From Chthoniobacterales bacterium (GTDB lineage Bacteria; Verrucomicrobiota; Verrucomicrobiia; Chthoniobacterales; UBA6821): a stretch of 64,000 nt of DNA. Shown here in pieces: positions 20,971-57,387 of this stretch (the first letter of the stretch is position 1; each line of letters begins with the position of its first letter). A model generated the notes under the pieces. The model was not told the DNA's origin. It searched no databases and worked only from the letters and a program-made list of their open reading frames with translations. Where the stretch lies: the NCBI GenBank assembly GCA_019747895.1, contig JAIEQF010000019.1, positions 71,363 to 135,362 of the forward strand, given 5' to 3'. Both the position numbers and the translations under genes were made by a program.

Positions 20971-21918
20971 GTGAATAGTTTCTCTTTTTTTCGCTTGCTG
21001 AATCTTCTTTCGCTTGATGTCGTTTTGATCGCTCTAGCATGGCAAGAGGTTTTTGCTCGCACTGCTACCGTTACTTTGCGATGGGAAGAAAGAGCTTTTT
21101 TGGCGCTTTCTATTTGGATTGTATACATTCTTGATCACTGGCTTGATTCCATGGCAGATATTGTTTCCAGTGCAGGCTTCTTTTCCAACAAAGCGCCGCG
21201 TCATCATTATGTCAGGTCTCATCGTTTCGTATTAGGAAGTCTTCTCGTGCTAGCCTCACTTACTAATGTTTGGTTGTTGTGGCATCTCGGATTAAGACTC
21301 TTGATCGCCGGAATGGGATTAGTCGTGATCACGTTGAGTTATCTTGTGATCAATGCTTTTTTTCTGCGACGAGGGCGTTGGTTCAAGGGGAGGGAAATAA
21401 TCATTTCTATTATTTTTTCAGTCGGATGCTCTTTGGTGGCGCTAGTTCAAGGTGATCGACCGTGGTTGCTCTTGCCCTGGATCATGGCTTTTGCACTGGT
21501 TGCTTTGATCAACTGCACGTTGATTGCTCGGATGGAGCGGATAGATTTCTTTCGAAACTCTACTTCTGATGCGAATTGCAGCGTCGCTCCGGTGCTCGCG
21601 TCATCGAGTATTAACTATGCATTCAGCCGCTGTGCGACGGAGGCTCCTGGCGCTTCATCGCCAGAAGCGAGTTTGGAAAGAAATCTAGTTTTACCATTGG
21701 CTCCAAAAATATTTTTTTCTCTGCGATCAGTTTTGTGCTTGCTTTTATTTTTGTTTCTTTTTGCTTTTCCATTTCCTTCGATCATAAAAGCTTTCTCTTG
21801 GAGCCTCATGGGATTAGCTCTTATTCCGATGATAGGGCGTCGCTGGGGTTATGAAGTTGCTTCTCTTGCTGCTGATCAAGTTTTGTTTTTTGGTGCTTTG
21901 TTATCCTTGTTAATATAA
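20971..21918 (+). CDS. Polytopic membrane protein, possibly UbiA-like prenyltransferase superfamily, with a repeat-derived insert
   Basis: The track ORF starts at TTG 20896, inside B-module 3. GTG 20971 directly after the module is the more likely start. Multiple TM helices. YILDHWLDSMAD resembles an Asp-rich DxxxD motif, so the family call is weak. Confidence 0.55.
   Translation: MNSFSFFRLLNLLSLDVVLIALAWQEVFARTATVTLRWEERAFLALSIWIVYILDHWLDSMADIVSSAGFFSNKAPRHHYVRSHRFVLGSLLVLASLTNVWLLWHLGLRLLIAGMGLVVITLSYLVINAFFLRRGRWFKGREIIISIIFSVGCSLVALVQGDRPWLLLPWIMAFALVALINCTLIARMERIDFFRNSTSDANCSVAPVLASSSINYAFSRCATEAPGASSPEASLERNLVLPLAPKIFFSLRSVLCLLLFLFLFAFPFPSIIKAFSWSLMGLALIPMIGRRWGYEVASLAADQVLFFGALLSLLI
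21585..21680 (+). repeat. E-module plus D-module copy lying in frame inside the membrane-protein ORF
   Basis: ccggtgctcgcgtcatcgagtattaac matches 34165-34190 at 25 of 27. tcagccgctgtgcg...cttcatcgccagaagcga aligns with the D-modules at 23787-23852 and 34357-34423. Confidence 0.8.
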
Positions 21919-34036: not shown

Positions 34037-34055
34037 CTGCCTCATTAATTGCAAC

Positions 34056-34134
34056 TTGCTCGCTCCCGCGAGGCTCGCCCCTGTGGGGCTGCCTTTGGCA
34101 TTTGATCCGGCGGCTCTGCCACGCCGCACGTATG
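34056..34134 (+). repeat. GC-rich B-module, copy 4 of 5
   Basis: ttgctcgctcccgcgaggctcgcccctgtggggctgcctttggcatttgatccggcggctctgccacgccgcacgtatg. Confidence 0.85.
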
Positions 34135-34192
34135 TACTGCTGCAGCGAAGAGCTGTGTCGCGCCAGTGCTCGCGTCATCGAGTATTAGCATA

Positions 34193-34358
34193 TATAGTCA
34201 AATTACTTAGAACTTACAAGCAACTGATTTGTCCTTTTTGGGAAAAGACTGCGTTCTCATCCCGTCATGTTATCGTTTAGATAGCGCTCGGTCTTCGGCC
34301 TGGCCTTTTCTAAAAATTCCTGCGTTCTTCCCTGTAATTTCTAAGTAATTTGATTATA
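34193..34358. mobile_element. MITE-like element, copy 1 (about 28-nt terminal inverted repeats, TA on both flanks)
   Basis: tatagtcaaattacttagaacttacaag against the reverse complement of cctgtaatttctaagtaatttgattata (25 of 28). 8 differences in 166 nt compared with 55801-55966. It sits between an E-module (34165-34190) and a D-module (34357-34423). Confidence 0.85.
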
Positions 34359-53443: not shown

Positions 53444-55417
53444 ATGAATAACCAAATTCTTCAACAATCTGCTCGTGATGCTCGTGGTCTTGCCATGGAC
53501 GCTGTCACCACCTGTAAATCAGGTCATCTGGGTCTTCCACTTGGTTCCGCGGAATTAGGAGCGGTTCTTTTTGGAGAGTTGTTGAAGCTCAATCCTGCTG
53601 AACCACGTTGGCTTAATCGCGATCGTTTTGTTCTCTCGGCAGGTCATGGAAGTATGTTTCTTTATTCCTGGCTGCATCTTGCTGGCTTTGCGATTTCATT
53701 GGAGGATCTCAAAAAATTTCGCGTGCTTCATAGTTTGACTCCTGGTCATCCTGAGTTTCATCACACACCTGGTGTTGAGGCAACGACTGGACCGCTCGGG
53801 CAAGGCGTTGCCAATGCTGTTGGATTGGCTATTTCAGGTCGTATGGCGGCGGCTCGTTTTAATACTTCGGAACATACCATCATCGATCACCACATCGTCT
53901 GTTTGGCTGGTGATGGTTGTTTGCAAGAGGGGGTTTCAGCTGAGGCTTCCTCGCTCGCTGGACATCTTGGGCTCGACAACCTTATTCTTTTTCATGATGC
54001 GAATCGCGTGACTCTTGATGCGATGCTTGACGTCAGCGAGAGTGATGATACTGCAGCTCGCTATCGTGCGTATGGTTGGGATGTTCAAGAAATTGATGGT
54101 GGAAATCTTGAAGAAATTGAGGCTGCCTTCCTCAAAGCAAAAGCCGCTGTGGGTAAGCCCCAGTTCATTGTTTCTCGCACCTTGATTGGGAATGGTATTC
54201 CTGAAGTTGCTGGAACCAACAAAGCTCACGGCGAAGCAGGTGTGAAGTACACGGAAGCTGCACGCAAAGCACTAGGCCTGCCCGATGAGAAGTTTTTTGT
54301 CTCACCAGAAGTGCGTGCTTATTTCAAGCAGCACCAAGAGGAGCAAGTCAACGCTTACGAAGCTTGGAAAAAAACTTATGAGGCATGGCGTGCTGCCAAC
54401 GCTGATATGGCAAAGGACCTCGACAATTCCTTGGACAAAAAAGTTCCTGACTTGCTCGCTGCGATTCCTGAATTTGCACCAGCTGAAGCCATCGCTACGC
54501 GGAAAGCCGGCGGCGTTGTTTTAAATGCCATTGCTAAAAAAATGCCGCTGCTTGTGACCGGAAGTGCTGATCTTTTTGGGTCGACGATGAATTATTTGGA
54601 AGGCCTTGGGGATCTCACTCGTGAAAATCCAGCAGGTCGCAATATTCACTTTGGTATTCGCGAGCATGCCATGGCAGCCATCATGAATGGTATTGCTTAC
54701 GATGGAATCTTTCAACCAAGTGGTGCGACGTTCTTGGTCTTTAGTGATTATGCGCGTCCTTCGATTCGCTTGGCAGCGCTTTCGAATTTGCCAACGATTT
54801 ACATTTTTACACATGATTCTGTTGCGGTGGGTGAAGATGGTCCAACTCATGAGCCGGTGGAAACAGTCGCTGCATTGCGTGCGATTCCTGGGCTTGATGT
54901 CATACGTCCTGGTGATTCAGAAGAGACGGCAGGAGCTTTTGCTGCTGCCTATTCAAGAACCGATGGTCCGACGCTTCTTGCGCTCTGTCGTCAAAATCTT
55001 CCGAATCTCAGCGAGATTCCGGTCGCGACACGTCGTCAAGGCATTGCTCGTGGAGCCTACATTGCGCGGAAGGAAACAAAAAATCTTGAGACAATTGTAA
55101 TGGCAACCGGAAGTGAACTTCAATTGGCTCTGGAAGCTGCTAAACAACTGGGTGAGGGAACACGTGTTGTTTCGATGCCTTGCATGGAACGTTTCTTGCG
55201 CCAAGATGCAGCTTATCAAGAAGAGGTCTTGCCGAGGTCTTGTCGCAAGCGTGTTTCGATTGAGGCAGGCATCTCTCAACCGTGGTTCCAATTTGTTGGT
55301 CTCGACGGAAAGAGTGTTGGTATCAATCGTTTTGGCTTGAGTGCTCCAGGTGCTATCGCATTAAGTGAGCTAGGAATGACCGCAGAGGCTGTTGTCGCTG
55401 CGGCTCGCTCTTTGTAA
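53444..55417 (+). CDS. tkt: Transketolase
   Basis: GHLGLPLG, GDGCLQEG (TPP binding) and THDSVAVGEDGPTHEPVE motifs. Confidence 0.96.
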   Translation: MNNQILQQSARDARGLAMDAVTTCKSGHLGLPLGSAELGAVLFGELLKLNPAEPRWLNRDRFVLSAGHGSMFLYSWLHLAGFAISLEDLKKFRVLHSLTPGHPEFHHTPGVEATTGPLGQGVANAVGLAISGRMAAARFNTSEHTIIDHHIVCLAGDGCLQEGVSAEASSLAGHLGLDNLILFHDANRVTLDAMLDVSESDDTAARYRAYGWDVQEIDGGNLEEIEAAFLKAKAAVGKPQFIVSRTLIGNGIPEVAGTNKAHGEAGVKYTEAARKALGLPDEKFFVSPEVRAYFKQHQEEQVNAYEAWKKTYEAWRAANADMAKDLDNSLDKKVPDLLAAIPEFAPAEAIATRKAGGVVLNAIAKKMPLLVTGSADLFGSTMNYLEGLGDLTRENPAGRNIHFGIREHAMAAIMNGIAYDGIFQPSGATFLVFSDYARPSIRLAALSNLPTIYIFTHDSVAVGEDGPTHEPVETVAALRAIPGLDVIRPGDSEETAGAFAAAYSRTDGPTLLALCRQNLPNLSEIPVATRRQGIARGAYIARKETKNLETIVMATGSELQLALEAAKQLGEGTRVVSMPCMERFLRQDAAYQEEVLPRSCRKRVSIEAGISQPWFQFVGLDGKSVGINRFGLSAPGAIALSELGMTAEAVVAAARSL

Positions 55418-55688
55418 GATTGCACTTCGTTTCATAGCTCCTGCATTGAATGATGCAGGGGAAGTTATATTTTCAAATGACTTGGCCGCGATTAAAGCTT
55501 TGATTGACGCTCAAGTCATAAATCAGAACGCTCTTTTTCGTAATGGTCCATTTTTTGAATTGATCTGGATCAACTTGATGTGAGCTATGACTAGAGCATT
55601 TTCACTAAAGTTGTAGCCGCGCATTGCGGCGTCACTCCGGTGCTCGCGTCCTCGAGTATCAGAATACACTGCGGATCTGCGGTTGAAC

Positions 55689-55766
55689 TCGCTCGCTCCC
55701 GCTCGGCTCGCCCTTACGGGCTGCTTAACAGCAGTCCATCCAGCGGCCGCCCGGCCGGCTGTATTC
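55689..55766 (+). repeat. GC-rich B-module, copy 5 of 5 (diverged)
   Basis: tcgctcgctcccgctcggctcgcccttacgggctgcttaacagcagtccatccagcggccgcccggccggctgtattc. Confidence 0.7.
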
Positions 55767-55800
55767 TCGTTTCTGGCACTGCATCGGCTACAACTTCATT

Positions 55801-55966
55801 TATAGTCAAATTACTTAGAACTTACAAGCAATTGACTTGTCCTTTTTAGGAAAAGACTGTGTTCTCATCCCGTCACGTTATCGTTTAGATAGCGCTCGGT
55901 CTTCGGTCTGGCCTTTTCTAAAAATTCCTGCGTTCTTCCCTGTAATTTTTAAGTAATTTGACTATA
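55801..55966. mobile_element. MITE-like element, copy 2
   Basis: About 95% identical to 34193-34358. TA at 55801-55802 and 55965-55966 flanks the core tagtcaaatt...aatttgacta. Confidence 0.85.
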
Positions 55967-56129
55967 ACATGCTCTAGTAACTGTGAGAAAAAAGCTAGGT
56001 TCGTTTTCTGGAGAAGGATTTTCTTGTAAGTGATGATCTGTTTTTTGATCCGATGCTTCTGGTAAAAAAGCGCATGGAAAATCTAAAAGAATAGGTTCGG
56101 AAGAAACATCTTCTCTCTGTTGAAAAAAA

Positions 56130-56785
56130 TTAGAAAAAAATTTCTTTTTCTTGATGCCAAAATTCTAGGCTTATCAATTTGCTGATAGCAAAAGCGATGG
56201 TGGCGTCAAAAGTGAAGCCGGTTTTTGCTTCTTCTTTTTGCAGCTCTGCGAGCAGATATCCTTGAGTTCTTGTTGTGAACTCTTGTTGGAGTTCCGGTCC
56301 TGCCTTCAAAGAGCCTTGCATTGGGAATGTGCAGAGGACAGAAGAATCCCTTTTTAAAATCTGGAGAAGAAGCGAGATTTTTTCCGTGGAGAAGGTTATT
56401 TCATTTTTTGATAACAATGAATCTACCTCTTCTTTTTTTTGGCGATAGCTTCTTCTGAATTTTTTCTTCGCGCGTTCCCTCTGCGCTTTGTGCGAAGGGA
56501 TCTTGTGATGCGTCTGGATATTTTAAAAAATGCTCTGAAGGTGAACCATAAGGAGTAAAAAACTGGTCAGGTGTAACGCTTCCTCTTCTAGAGATGGTGC
56601 TGCCCGTGCTGAATCTGTTTTTGCTCGCCCCAATAGTCGGATCAATTGCTGTGCTCAGAACAAACCGATCGCCTCGTTCTGTTCGGCCAGAGGCATCCTC
56701 TTCCTCTCCTCGTTGGATTTCCCTTGTCTTAGCAGTGGTTGGATTTTTTAAACTATCTTCAAAGGAAGATGGTTTTTTTATCCAT
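56130..56785 (-). pseudogene. Gene split into three frames by two A/T homopolymers; would encode about 217 aa if each run were 1 nt shorter
   Basis: ATG at 56785 gives MDKK, then the T7 run (56773-56779) shifts frame. The middle frame is open from 56793 to the stop at 56401. The T6 run (56404-56409) separates it from track ORF 56130..56417. The middle part is S/T/P/R-rich with KKLSPKKRRGR. Confidence 0.6.
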
Positions 56786-56847
56786 CGGATTAGCTAGCAG
56801 TAAAGCAGAAAGCCATAAACTTCCCGTGACAATGGGAAAGATTTTGA

Positions 56848-57387
56848 TCAAGGTTTAAGAACACGAATTTCTGGAAGGTTCCTATAATATTCCTGATAGT
56901 CGAGGCCATATCCGACAACAAATTCATCAGGAATTTCAAATCCAACATAGTGAGCCGTGATGTTTTCAGTGGTCTTTGCTGTTTTGTGGAGGAGCACGCA
57001 AGACTGAAGGCTTGCGGGGCCTTTGGTTTGAAGGTATTCGCTGAGAACTTTCAATGTTTTTCCGCTATCGAGAATATCATCAATGAGCAGAAGGTGGCGG
57101 TCCGTGATATCAGGAAGCGGGACGGATTGAAGAGTGACCATGCCGGAAGAGACAGTGCCTCCGTGGTAGCTTGATACAGGAATGATTTCCAATCTGAGAG
57201 GAAGAGGAATGAGGCGGAGGAGATCTGCCAAAAAGACAATGCTTCCCTTCATGAGGGCAATAATGGTCAATTCTTTGTCTGCATAATCTCGTGTGATAGC
57301 CGTTGCAAGTTCAGTAACTCTTTTTTGAATGGCCTGTTGATCAACAAGAATTCGATCGATGTTGGGTGTTTTCGTTTTGTTGGTCAT
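56848..57387 (-). CDS. hpt: Hypoxanthine-guanine phosphoribosyltransferase
   Basis: ORF trimmed to the ATG at 57387. PRPP-binding motif LLLIDDILDSGKTL. Confidence 0.92.
   Translation of the reverse strand: MTNKTKTPNIDRILVDQQAIQKRVTELATAITRDYADKELTIIALMKGSIVFLADLLRLIPLPLRLEIIPVSSYHGGTVSSGMVTLQSVPLPDITDRHLLLIDDILDSGKTLKVLSEYLQTKGPASLQSCVLLHKTAKTTENITAHYVGFEIPDEFVVGYGLDYQEYYRNLPEIRVLKP

What the first reader, a model, noticed from the sequence alone, without database searches (positions are those of the whole stretch)
56130..56785. Gene broken twice at A/T homopolymers: phase variation, decay or sequencing error
**Observed on the reverse strand**
- An ATG at 56785 gives MDKK, then runs into an A7 tract (56773-56779) and stops after 8 codons.
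- The next frame is open for 130 codons (…SSFEDSLKNPTTAKTREIQRGEEEDASGRTERGDRF…TPDQFFTPYGSPSEHFLKYPDASQDPFAQSAEGTREEKIQKKLSPKKRRGRFIVIKK).
- That frame ends at a TGA right after an A6 tract (56404-56409).
- The track ORF 56130-56417 continues in the third frame.
- Removing one A from each tract gives a single ORF of about 217 aa, with a disordered, NLS-like N-terminal half and a folded-looking C-terminal half.

**Interpretations**
- Slipped-strand phase variation of a surface or effector gene.
- A recent pseudogene.
- Homopolymer over-calls in the assembly. The acyltransferase frameshift at about 60463 may favour real decay or a general indel problem.
- The second site, AAA-AAA-TGA, also resembles a stop-codon-stimulated +1 recoding context. 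That is speculation.
Basis: partly seen in the sequence, partly recalled or inferred. Interest (0 to 1): 0.55.

Follow-up and report, generated by a model that had tools for sequence, protein, structure and literature searches.

The report
Decaying orphan gene beside repeat elements
This is most likely the dead remnant of a small gene with no known relatives, found in only two sister lineages of a freshwater Verrucomicrobia group, broken three times here and truncated differently in the sister, so it is an ordinary pseudogene rather than a switch or recoding signal.

Summary
On the minus strand, ATG 56785 plus three single-base frame changes gives a stop-free path of about 278 codons (56785 to 55949), not 217. 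The third break is at 56130-56143. Break 2 can lie anywhere in 56401-56523, where there are three A-tracts.

The window is an NCBI Chthoniobacterales MAG, and its annotation calls only a 63-aa ORF here. No family or homologue was found except one partial copy, P0002, in the sister lineage at the same hpt-tkt locus. That copy:
- reads straight through break 3;
- carries its own 1-nt frameshift elsewhere;
- has lost the 5' 500 nt to a degraded IS256-type transposase and repeats.

The next-closest lineages have hpt and tkt only 48 nt apart.

pN/pS is 0.58, against 0.03-0.23 for neighbouring genes. None of 173 A/T tracts of 6 or more bases breaks any of the 52 uninterrupted ORFs I took as genes, so assembly error is unlikely.

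Best reading: an accessory orphan gene acquired in a repeat-rich insertion hotspot and now decaying independently in both lineages. Phase variation and recoding are not supported. Interest is low.

The parts
56783..56785 (-). Only available start codon (ATG) of the composite reading frame
   Evidence: The following 130-codon frame has no start codon of its own.
56773..56779 (-). Break 1: A7 tract. One A fewer joins MDKK to the 130-codon frame.
   Evidence: No orthologous sequence exists for this part, so the lesion is inferred. The tract is also the T7 tail of a strong hairpin on the + strand (56750-56775).
56404..56772 (-). Piece 2: stop-free frame encoding PSSFEDSLKNPTTAKTREIQ...; predicted low-complexity N-terminal half
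   Evidence: Codon-usage score is about 0.0, between real genes (0.19 +/- 0.07) and spurious open stretches (-0.22 +/- 0.14). No homologue.
56401..56523 (-). Zone in which break 2 must lie. Both frames are open here. Candidate tracts: A6 56460-56465, A8 56433-56440, A6 56404-56409.
   Evidence: The coding score switches frame at about 56450-56480.
56133..56438 (-). Piece 3: helical C-terminal region. The NCBI annotation calls only its last 63 codons (56130-56321, MBX9577717.1).
   Evidence: AlphaFold2 single-sequence model is all-helical with mean pLDDT 66.5. From 56288 downstream it is homologous to the sister-lineage copy.
56130..56143 (-). The window has one extra base relative to the sister lineage, which reads through in frame.
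55949..56131 (-). Piece 4: the last 60 codons plus the TAA stop. The final six codons and the stop come from the terminal inverted repeat of the adjoining MITE-like element.
   Evidence: Codon-usage score 0.21. The sister copy carries its own 1-nt deletion at window position 56063 (the C after the A6 tract 56064-56069).
55801..55966 (.). MITE-like 166-bp element with 32-nt terminal inverted repeats, abutting or overlapping the 3' end of the remnant
   Evidence: A second copy lies at 34193-34358 (95% identity). Two copies occur in L007.
55590..55800 (.). REP-like G+C-rich repeats between the MITE-like element and tkt
   Evidence: Copies lie at 17746-17824, 21571-21611 and 34053-34192. A 90-nt piece is 98.9% identical in L081 but sits on the other side of the gene remnant.
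56848..57387 (-). hpt (hypoxanthine phosphoribosyltransferase), upstream flanking gene
53444..55417 (+). tkt (transketolase), convergent flanking gene

Best explanation
The 0.84-kb stretch 55949-56785 (minus strand) is the non-functional remnant of a lineage-restricted orphan protein gene of about 278 codons.

**Proposed history**
1. The gene entered, or arose in, the normally 48-nt spacer between the convergent hpt and tkt genes. This happened in the common ancestor of this MAG and one sister lineage. The spot also collects IS, MITE-like and REP-like elements.
2. Selection on the gene was then relaxed.
3. In this lineage it took three single-base insertions in A/T-rich runs.
4. In the sister lineage it lost its 5' 500 nt to an IS256-type insertion or rearrangement, and took a different single-base deletion.

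No full-length product is made.

**Shown**
- The breaks and their coordinates.
- Homology and synteny of the sister copy.
- The in-frame state of break 3 in the sister.
- The empty site in the next relatives.
- The relaxed pN/pS.

**Inferred**
- That breaks 1 and 2 are insertions in a once-continuous frame.
- That the ancestor was a working gene.
- The order of events.
For: 1. A stop-free path of 844 nt with two frame switches is reached by 8 of 1000 shuffles.
2. A full HMMER scan of 1.84 billion representative proteins with the C-terminal piece found only the window's own 63-aa ORF and P0002 (121 aa, 73% identity).
3. P0002 sits at the same locus: acyltransferase, S8 peptidase, ruvA, hypothetical, hpt, then P0002, then tkt.
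4. Its DNA matches window 56288-55974 at 83% identity with two 1-nt gaps. One gap is at break 3, where the sister is in frame. The other is at the sister's A7 tract, where the sister is out of frame.
5. The sister lacks window positions from about 56790 to 56288. In their place it has a fragmentary, frameshifted Transposase_mut gene plus REP-like repeats.
6. The sister's hpt product (2 amino-acid differences) is the closest recovered with usable flanking DNA. The next-closest informative lineages (5-6 differences) have the hpt and tkt stop codons 48 nt apart with nothing between them. More distant relatives have 140-290 nt.
7. pN/pS over the shared 3' third is 0.58 (18 synonymous and 40 non-synonymous changes). 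This is below 1 at Fisher p = 0.026, so a coding history is likely. It is far above the neighbours (0.03-0.23).
8. 173 A/T tracts of 6 or more bases in 52 uninterrupted ORFs are all in frame. The upper 95% bound on the per-tract error rate is about 1.7% (my calculation from the 173 tracts counted).
9. The nearby acyltransferase gene has a non-homopolymer 1-nt deletion relative to the sister, so accessory genes here do decay.
10. hpt itself carries a real in-frame 6-nt slippage duplication.
Against: - No intact copy of the gene exists anywhere searched. That it ever encoded a working protein therefore rests on the stop-free path, a marginal pN/pS test on 58 substitutions, and one confident-looking piece.
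- Codon usage of pieces 2 and 3 is below nearly all real genes of the window.
- No promoter-like site or Shine-Dalgarno sequence lies before ATG 56785.
- A probable hpt terminator hairpin lies just upstream.
- Breaks 1 and 2 have no orthologous sequence to compare with.
- Reads were not available, so tract lengths in the source population are unknown.
Confidence: 0.66

Rival explanations
1. The region was never a gene. It is non-genic filler or mobile-element debris between hpt and tkt, A-rich on the minus strand, in which long stop-free stretches chain up by chance.
For: - The single 390-nt open frame is reached by 116 of 1000 shuffles.
- Pieces 2 and 3 have intermediate codon usage, equal to that of an antisense ORF.
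- There is no start signal, no family and no homologue for the 5' 500 nt.
- A/T-tract density is 15 per kb, against 3.3 per kb in the uninterrupted ORFs.
- The locus is full of repeats.
- The A7 tract is the tail of a strong hairpin on the other strand.
Against: - The chained path is reached by only 8 of 1000 shuffles.
- The 3' third shows fewer non-synonymous than synonymous changes per site in exactly the proposed frames (p = 0.026).
- In block C the window's frame gives a ratio of 0.40, against 1.17 and 1.78 for the other two frames.
- Piece 4 has typical gene codon usage.
- The sister copy keeps 88 codons in one frame across the window's break 3.
Confidence: 0.18
2. The gene is intact and ordinary. 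The two or three extra bases are homopolymer over-calls or consensus errors in the MAG assembly.
For: - All three breaks need removal of exactly one base, and all lie in or beside A/T runs.
- The record is a metagenome-assembled genome, and reads could not be inspected.
Against: - None of 173 A/T tracts of 6 or more bases (53 of 7 or more) in 52 uninterrupted ORFs of the window is out of frame.
- With a per-tract error rate of at most 1.7%, three errors among the 13 tracts of this stretch have probability of about 1e-3 or less (my calculation from the counts).
- All the other orthologous genes compared with the sister lineage have matching or near-matching lengths.
- The sister copy, assembled independently in five samples, is also disabled.
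- The acyltransferase frameshift is not at a homopolymer.
Confidence: 0.08
3. The region is a phase-variable contingency gene switched by slipped-strand mispairing at poly-A/T tracts.
For: - The breaks sit at A7, A6-A8 and T7 runs.
- The first is four codons after the start, the classic position.
- The sister lineage differs by one base beside an A6/A7 tract.
Against: - Three independent tracts are OFF at once, so no single slip restores the frame.
- The tracts are short for efficient slippage.
- At break 3 the sister has no tract at all (GAATTCTTAGC).
- No ON allele was found in the 5.8-billion-cluster protein collection and its 1.84-billion representative set, two JGI metagenome scans or the viral contigs.
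- The sister copy is irreversibly truncated.
Confidence: 0.04
4. The region uses programmed +1 ribosomal frameshifting at the three stop codons (CUU-UGA-A, AAA-UGA-A, UUC-UAA-U) to make one protein.
For: - All three shifts are +1, and each can be drawn at the in-frame stop.
- The first is literally CUU UGA, the prfB slippery site (my knowledge of prfB).
Against: - Any +1 break whose next frame is open across the stop can be drawn this way.
- The chance that all three shifts share a direction is about 1 in 4.
- No Shine-Dalgarno-like stimulator lies upstream of CUU UGA.
- At break 3 the sister lineage encodes the same peptide in one frame, with neither stop nor slippery site. The site is therefore a recent mutation, not a conserved signal.
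- Three recoding events in one orphan gene are unprecedented in bacteria.
Confidence: 0.02

Closest known systems
Bacterial pseudogenes made by single-base indels in homopolymeric runs (accessory or orphan genes under relaxed selection)
   Same: - Multiple 1-nt frameshifts in or beside A/T runs.
- Elevated dN/dS relative to neighbouring genes.
- Independent disabling lesions in sister lineages.
- Location in a variable, repeat-rich spot, with absence from the next relatives.
   Different: The parent gene is unknown. No intact copy or family exists in any database searched, so pseudogene status cannot be shown by the usual comparison with a functional orthologue.
Phase-variable contingency loci with poly-A/T or poly-G/C tracts (as in Neisseria, Haemophilus, Campylobacter, Helicobacter)
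   Same: A homopolymer lies a few codons after the start codon. The frame depends on tract length.
   Different: - Three simultaneous breaks.
- Short tracts.
- One break site has no tract in the sister lineage.
- No ON allele.
- Free-living freshwater Chthoniobacterales rather than a host-adapted pathogen.
- The sister copy is truncated.
prfB-type programmed +1 frameshift (CUU UGA with an upstream Shine-Dalgarno-like stimulator)
   Same: The first frame ends in CUU UGA, and the continuation is in the +1 frame.
   Different: - No stimulator.
- No conservation.
- Unrelated protein.
- Two further shifts would be needed.
Intergenic insertion hotspots between convergent genes that collect MITE, REP and IS elements
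   Same: - The empty site is a 48-nt shared-terminator spacer.
- The occupied sites carry a MITE-like element, REP-like repeats and (in the sister) an IS256-family transposase remnant.
- Contigs of another relative break right after hpt.
   Different: Here the hotspot also holds an orphan ORF remnant of unknown origin.

Membership tests
Frameshifted pseudogene | Homologous coding sequence elsewhere that is continuous where this one is broken | tested here: met
   Met for break 3 only. P0002/L081 reads FWDQEKEFLANLSKNEETLSSEAVLLSFPYAFLPEASDQK in one frame across the window's break at 56130-56143. Breaks 1 and 2 have no orthologous sequence.
Frameshifted pseudogene | Relaxed selective constraint compared with functional genes of the same genome pair | tested here: met
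   pN/pS is 0.58 over 315 nt, against 0.03-0.23 for hpt, tkt, ruvA, the S8 peptidase and the hypothetical gene. The sample is small (58 substitutions).
Frameshifted pseudogene | An intact functional parent or orthologue exists | tested here: not met
   None was found in the 5.8-billion-cluster word search, the 1.84-billion-protein HMMER scan of the C-terminal piece, two JGI metagenome scans, the viral contigs, or the 108 loci fetched. This leaves 'remnant of an orphan gene' as an inference.
Frameshifted pseudogene | The lesions are real, not sequencing errors | not testable with these tools
   No reads were available. Indirect evidence: 0 of 173 A/T tracts of 6 or more bases in 52 uninterrupted ORFs is out of frame.
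Phase-variable contingency locus | One hypermutable repeat tract whose length change alone switches the gene ON and OFF | tested here: not met
   Three separate frame breaks are needed to restore one ORF.
Phase-variable contingency locus | The tract is conserved, and its length is polymorphic among close relatives or reads, including ON alleles | tested here: not met
   The sister lineage has no tract at break 3 and lacks the DNA of breaks 1 and 2. No ON allele was found anywhere. Read-level polymorphism could not be tested.
prfB-type programmed +1 frameshift | Slippery codon plus stop, with a Shine-Dalgarno-like stimulator a few bases upstream | tested here: not met
   CUU UGA is present at 56764-56759, but the upstream sequence AAAAAAACCAUCUUC has no purine-rich Shine-Dalgarno-like element.
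prfB-type programmed +1 frameshift | The recoding site is conserved in orthologues | tested here: not met
   At the only comparable site (break 3) the sister encodes the region in one frame with no stop.
MITE (for the adjoining 166-bp element) | Small non-coding element with terminal inverted repeats, present in several copies | tested here: met
   The 32-nt arms are 88% complementary. There are two copies in the window at 95% identity and two in L007 at 81%. A target-site duplication (possibly TA) and a cognate transposase were not established.

The most novel reading that the evidence does not exclude
The three pieces are still expressed as one lineage-specific protein. This would happen either through three stop-adjacent +1 ribosomal frameshifts (CUU-UGA, AAA-UGA, UUC-UAA) or through a multi-tract slippage switch in the population. 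The sister-lineage copy would then be the only truly dead one.
Probability: 0.03. Interest if true: 0.7.

Novelty: new member of a known kind. Interest (0 to 1): 0.14.

Why it matters
It matters little beyond annotation.
- It shows that the 63-aa 'hypothetical protein' in the deposited MAG is the tail of a larger, broken orphan reading frame.
- It shows that the hpt-tkt spacer in this Chthoniobacterales clade is a small insertion and decay hotspot: empty in some lineages, filled with MITE-like, REP-like and IS debris and a dying accessory gene in others.
- It is a tidy example of independent inactivation of the same accessory gene in two sister lineages.
- It does not bear on any open question.

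If the unlikely recoding reading were true, it would be a striking case of serial +1 frameshifting in a bacterium.

Tried and rejected
**Family searches**
- Pfam, PHROGs and NCBIfam scans of the repaired 278-aa protein and of P0002 found nothing.

**Homologue searches**
- The word-indexed search of 5.8 billion clusters found nothing, with the repaired protein or with piece 2 alone. It even missed P0002, so its negatives are weak.
- Two JGI metagenome scans (protein, then the two-sequence alignment) and one viral-contig scan found nothing.
Only the C-terminal window piece was searched. Its hits P0003 and P0004 are eukaryote-like tandem-repeat proteins with many weak stretches, and I discarded them.

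**Look-ups of the window's own products**
- Exact look-ups of the window's hpt product found no contigs on record.
- Exact look-ups of other small ORFs of the region found none in the collection.

**RNA and structure**
- Rfam at gathering and at E up to 5, and ARAGORN, show no RNA gene in 55350-56900.
- The apparent conservation with L003 turned out to be REP-like repeats.
- The AlphaFold2 single-sequence model of the C-terminal piece (pLDDT 66.5) gave no PDB match better than E = 1.9.

**Mobile-element and signal checks**
- There is no transposase remnant in the window itself.
- The promoter scan found nothing upstream of ATG 56785.

Full report
**1. The observation**

- ATG 56785 gives MDKK.
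- The A7 tract lies at 56773-56779, and that frame stops after 8 codons.
- The next frame is open to the TGA at 56403-56401, directly after the A6 tract at 56404-56409.
- ORF 56130-56417 is in the third frame.

Three things were missed.
- The 130-codon frame has no ATG, GTG or TTG of its own that would give an ORF of 30 aa or more.
- The second and third frames are both open between 56401 and 56523. Break 2 could equally be at the A8 tract (56433-56440) or at the A6 tract at 56460-56465. The codon-score switch falls near 56450-56480.
- After the TAA at 56130 a fourth frame stays open for 60 more codons, to a TAA at 55951-55949.

The composite is about 278 codons with three breaks, each needing one base fewer.

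In 1000 dinucleotide-preserving shuffles:

| Frame switches allowed | Observed stop-free path | Shuffles reaching it |
|---|---|---|
| 0 | 390 nt | 116/1000 |
| 1 | 661 nt | 19/1000 |
| 2 | 844 nt | 8/1000 |

The chain is unlikely to be chance. The single frame alone is not.

**2. Where the window comes from and what surrounds the stretch**

The exact hpt product and a 63-aa ORF (56130-56321) are NCBI proteins MBX9577719.1 and MBX9577717.1, from a 'Chthoniobacterales bacterium' MAG on a 146,957-bp contig. The stretch lies between two convergent genes, tkt (53444-55417, +) and hpt (56848-57387, -).

The 1.43 kb between them also holds:
- a 166-bp MITE-like element with 32-nt terminal inverted repeats (55801-55966), with a second copy at 34193-34358 and two copies in L007;
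- REP-like G+C-rich repeats (55590-55800), with copies elsewhere in the window.

The last six codons and the stop of the fourth piece are supplied by the inverted repeat of the MITE-like element. Rfam and ARAGORN find no RNA gene here.

**3. Relatives**

The repaired protein has no Pfam, PHROGs or NCBIfam match. The word-indexed search found no homologue.

An exhaustive HMMER scan of 1.84 billion representatives with the C-terminal piece found only the window's own 63-aa ORF and P0002 (121 aa, 73% identity). Two repeat proteins also scored, and I discard them.

P0002 occurs on contigs from five samples (four GROS21 ENA assemblies and one Logan run). Three of them extend upstream of it. Two show the same gene order as the window (acyltransferase, S8 peptidase, ruvA, hypothetical, hpt, P0002, tkt), and the third (L082) joins a different upstream context at the REP-like repeat. 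Between hpt and P0002 in the two syntenic contigs lie a fragmentary, frameshifted Transposase_mut (IS256-type) gene and REP-like repeats.

At the DNA level:
- only window 56288-55974 is shared, at 83% identity;
- homology on the hpt side stops at about 56790-56809;
- the sister therefore lacks the 5' 500 nt of the frame;
- within the shared part there are two 1-nt gaps.

The first gap is at the window's break 3. The window has GAAATTTTTTTC and the sister has G-AATTCTTAGC, and the sister reads through in one frame. This proves that pieces 3 and 4 belong together and that the window carries an insertion.

The second gap is at window CAAAAAAC against the sister's CAAAAAAA. After it the sister, not the window, is in the frame with the worse substitution pattern: ratio 1.17 for the sister's frame against 0.40 for the window's.

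Each lineage therefore carries its own disabling lesions.

**4. Distribution**

| Lineage | hpt protein differences from the window | State of the hpt-tkt site |
|---|---|---|
| Sister (P0011) | 2 | Insertion present, gene remnant truncated |
| P0009, P0012, P0014 | 5-6 | Stop codons 48 nt apart, one shared hairpin |
| L001, L002 (more distant) | more | 140-290 nt, nothing related |

One cluster member (P0017, 4 differences) has only an 806-nt contig and says nothing about the site.

Contigs of the L002 lineage mostly end 18-40 nt after hpt, which suggests a repeat there too. The simplest history is a single gain in the ancestor of the two sister lineages, at a spot that repeatedly accepts mobile DNA.

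**5. Was it a gene, and is it one now?**

Over the shared 3' third, in the proposed frames, there are 18 synonymous and 40 non-synonymous changes. pS is 0.28, pN is 0.16 and the ratio is 0.58. This is below 1 at Fisher p = 0.026. It is far above hpt, tkt, ruvA, the S8 peptidase and the hypothetical neighbour, which give 0.03-0.23.

Codon usage was scored against real genes (0.19 +/- 0.07) and spurious stop-free stretches (-0.22 +/- 0.14). Pieces 2 and 3 score about 0.0 and piece 4 scores 0.21. That is atypical for this genome but above 90% of spurious stretches.

A single-sequence AlphaFold2 model of the C-terminal piece is all-helical with mean pLDDT 66.5. It has no PDB match better than E = 1.9.

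No promoter-like site or Shine-Dalgarno sequence precedes ATG 56785, and a probable hpt terminator hairpin lies just upstream.

Together this fits a former, probably foreign, protein gene that now evolves nearly neutrally.

**6. Assembly error?**

The window holds 173 A/T tracts of 6 or more bases (53 of 7 or more) inside 52 uninterrupted ORFs, and none breaks a frame. That bounds the per-tract error at about 1.7%. Three errors among the 13 tracts of this stretch then have probability of about 1e-3 (my calculation from those counts).

All the other genes shared with the sister have matching or near-matching lengths. The acyltransferase gene is the exception. It has a 1-nt deletion at about 60435/6 in a non-homopolymer context (GTTGTTATTTATC to GTTGTC-TTTATC), while L083 encodes an intact 344-aa protein. 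hpt itself carries an in-frame AAAACG|AAAACA duplication absent from all 13 cluster relatives.

Real mutation is the better explanation. Only reads can close the question.

**7. Phase variation and recoding**

A contingency switch needs one tract that toggles the frame. Here three must be reset at once, the tracts are short, break 3 has no tract in the sister, and no ON allele exists anywhere searched.

The +1-at-stop reading (CUU-UGA, AAA-UGA, UUC-UAA) is available for any +1 break whose next frame is open. It lacks a stimulator. It is also contradicted at break 3 by the sister's single-frame coding.

**8. Verdict**

This is an ordinary, if neatly documented, decaying accessory orphan gene in a small mobile-element hotspot. 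Confidence in that reading is about two-thirds. The main rival is that the 5' two-thirds were never coding. Interest is low.

Noticed in passing
window 55801-55966 and 34193-34358; L007 11746-11906 and 15933-16098: A 166-bp MITE-like element with 32-nt terminal inverted repeats (TATAGTCAAATTACTTAGAA...). The two window copies are 95% identical. Two copies at about 81% identity occur in a more distant Chthoniobacterales-like MAG. No cognate transposase was identified.
   Followed up: partly
window 55590-55800; also 17746-17824, 21571-21611, 34053-34192; L081 5709-5838; L003; L006: A family of REP-like G+C-rich palindromic intergenic repeats. One 90-nt piece is 98.9% identical between the window and the sister lineage, much more than the flanking genes, yet sits on the opposite side of the gene remnant. 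That suggests recent mobility or gene conversion.
   Followed up: partly
window about 60401-61430 (break at about 60435/60436): The Acyl_transf_3 gene has a 1-nt deletion relative to L081 and L083, in a non-homopolymer context. This cuts off the first 35 or so codons. L083 encodes an intact 344-aa protein. The gene is absent in some related lineages (L086, L089).
   Followed up: yes
window 57364-57375 (hpt codons 4-7): An in-frame 6-nt tandem duplication (AAAACG AAAACA, extra Lys-Thr) in hpt. It is absent from all 13 members of its 90% cluster.
   Followed up: yes
window 56750-56775 (+ strand), tail to 56782: A strong 11-bp hairpin (dG -18.4 kcal/mol, z -4.1) flanked by T6 and T7 on the + strand. 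It looks like an intrinsic terminator for a + strand transcript, and its T7 tail is the A7 tract of 'break 1'. No + strand gene that it would terminate is evident.
   Followed up: partly
L086/L089/L093 4034-4083 versus window 55418-56847: The empty site. In the next-closest informative lineages the hpt and tkt stop codons are 48 nt apart and share one hairpin (TCTCTGCCAA...TTGGCAGAGA). The window and L081 have a different hairpin after hpt.
   Followed up: yes
L101, L103-L108 (lineage of L002): Seven independent contigs end 18-132 nt after the hpt stop. This suggests a repeat or mobile element at the same spot in that lineage too.
   Followed up: no
L082 versus L081, breakpoint at about L081 5698: One GROS21 sample joins the P0002-tkt side to a different upstream context (MFS transporter, PBP, TsaD/TsaE). 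The junction is at the REP-like repeat. This is either a rearrangement or an assembly chimera at the repeat.
   Followed up: no
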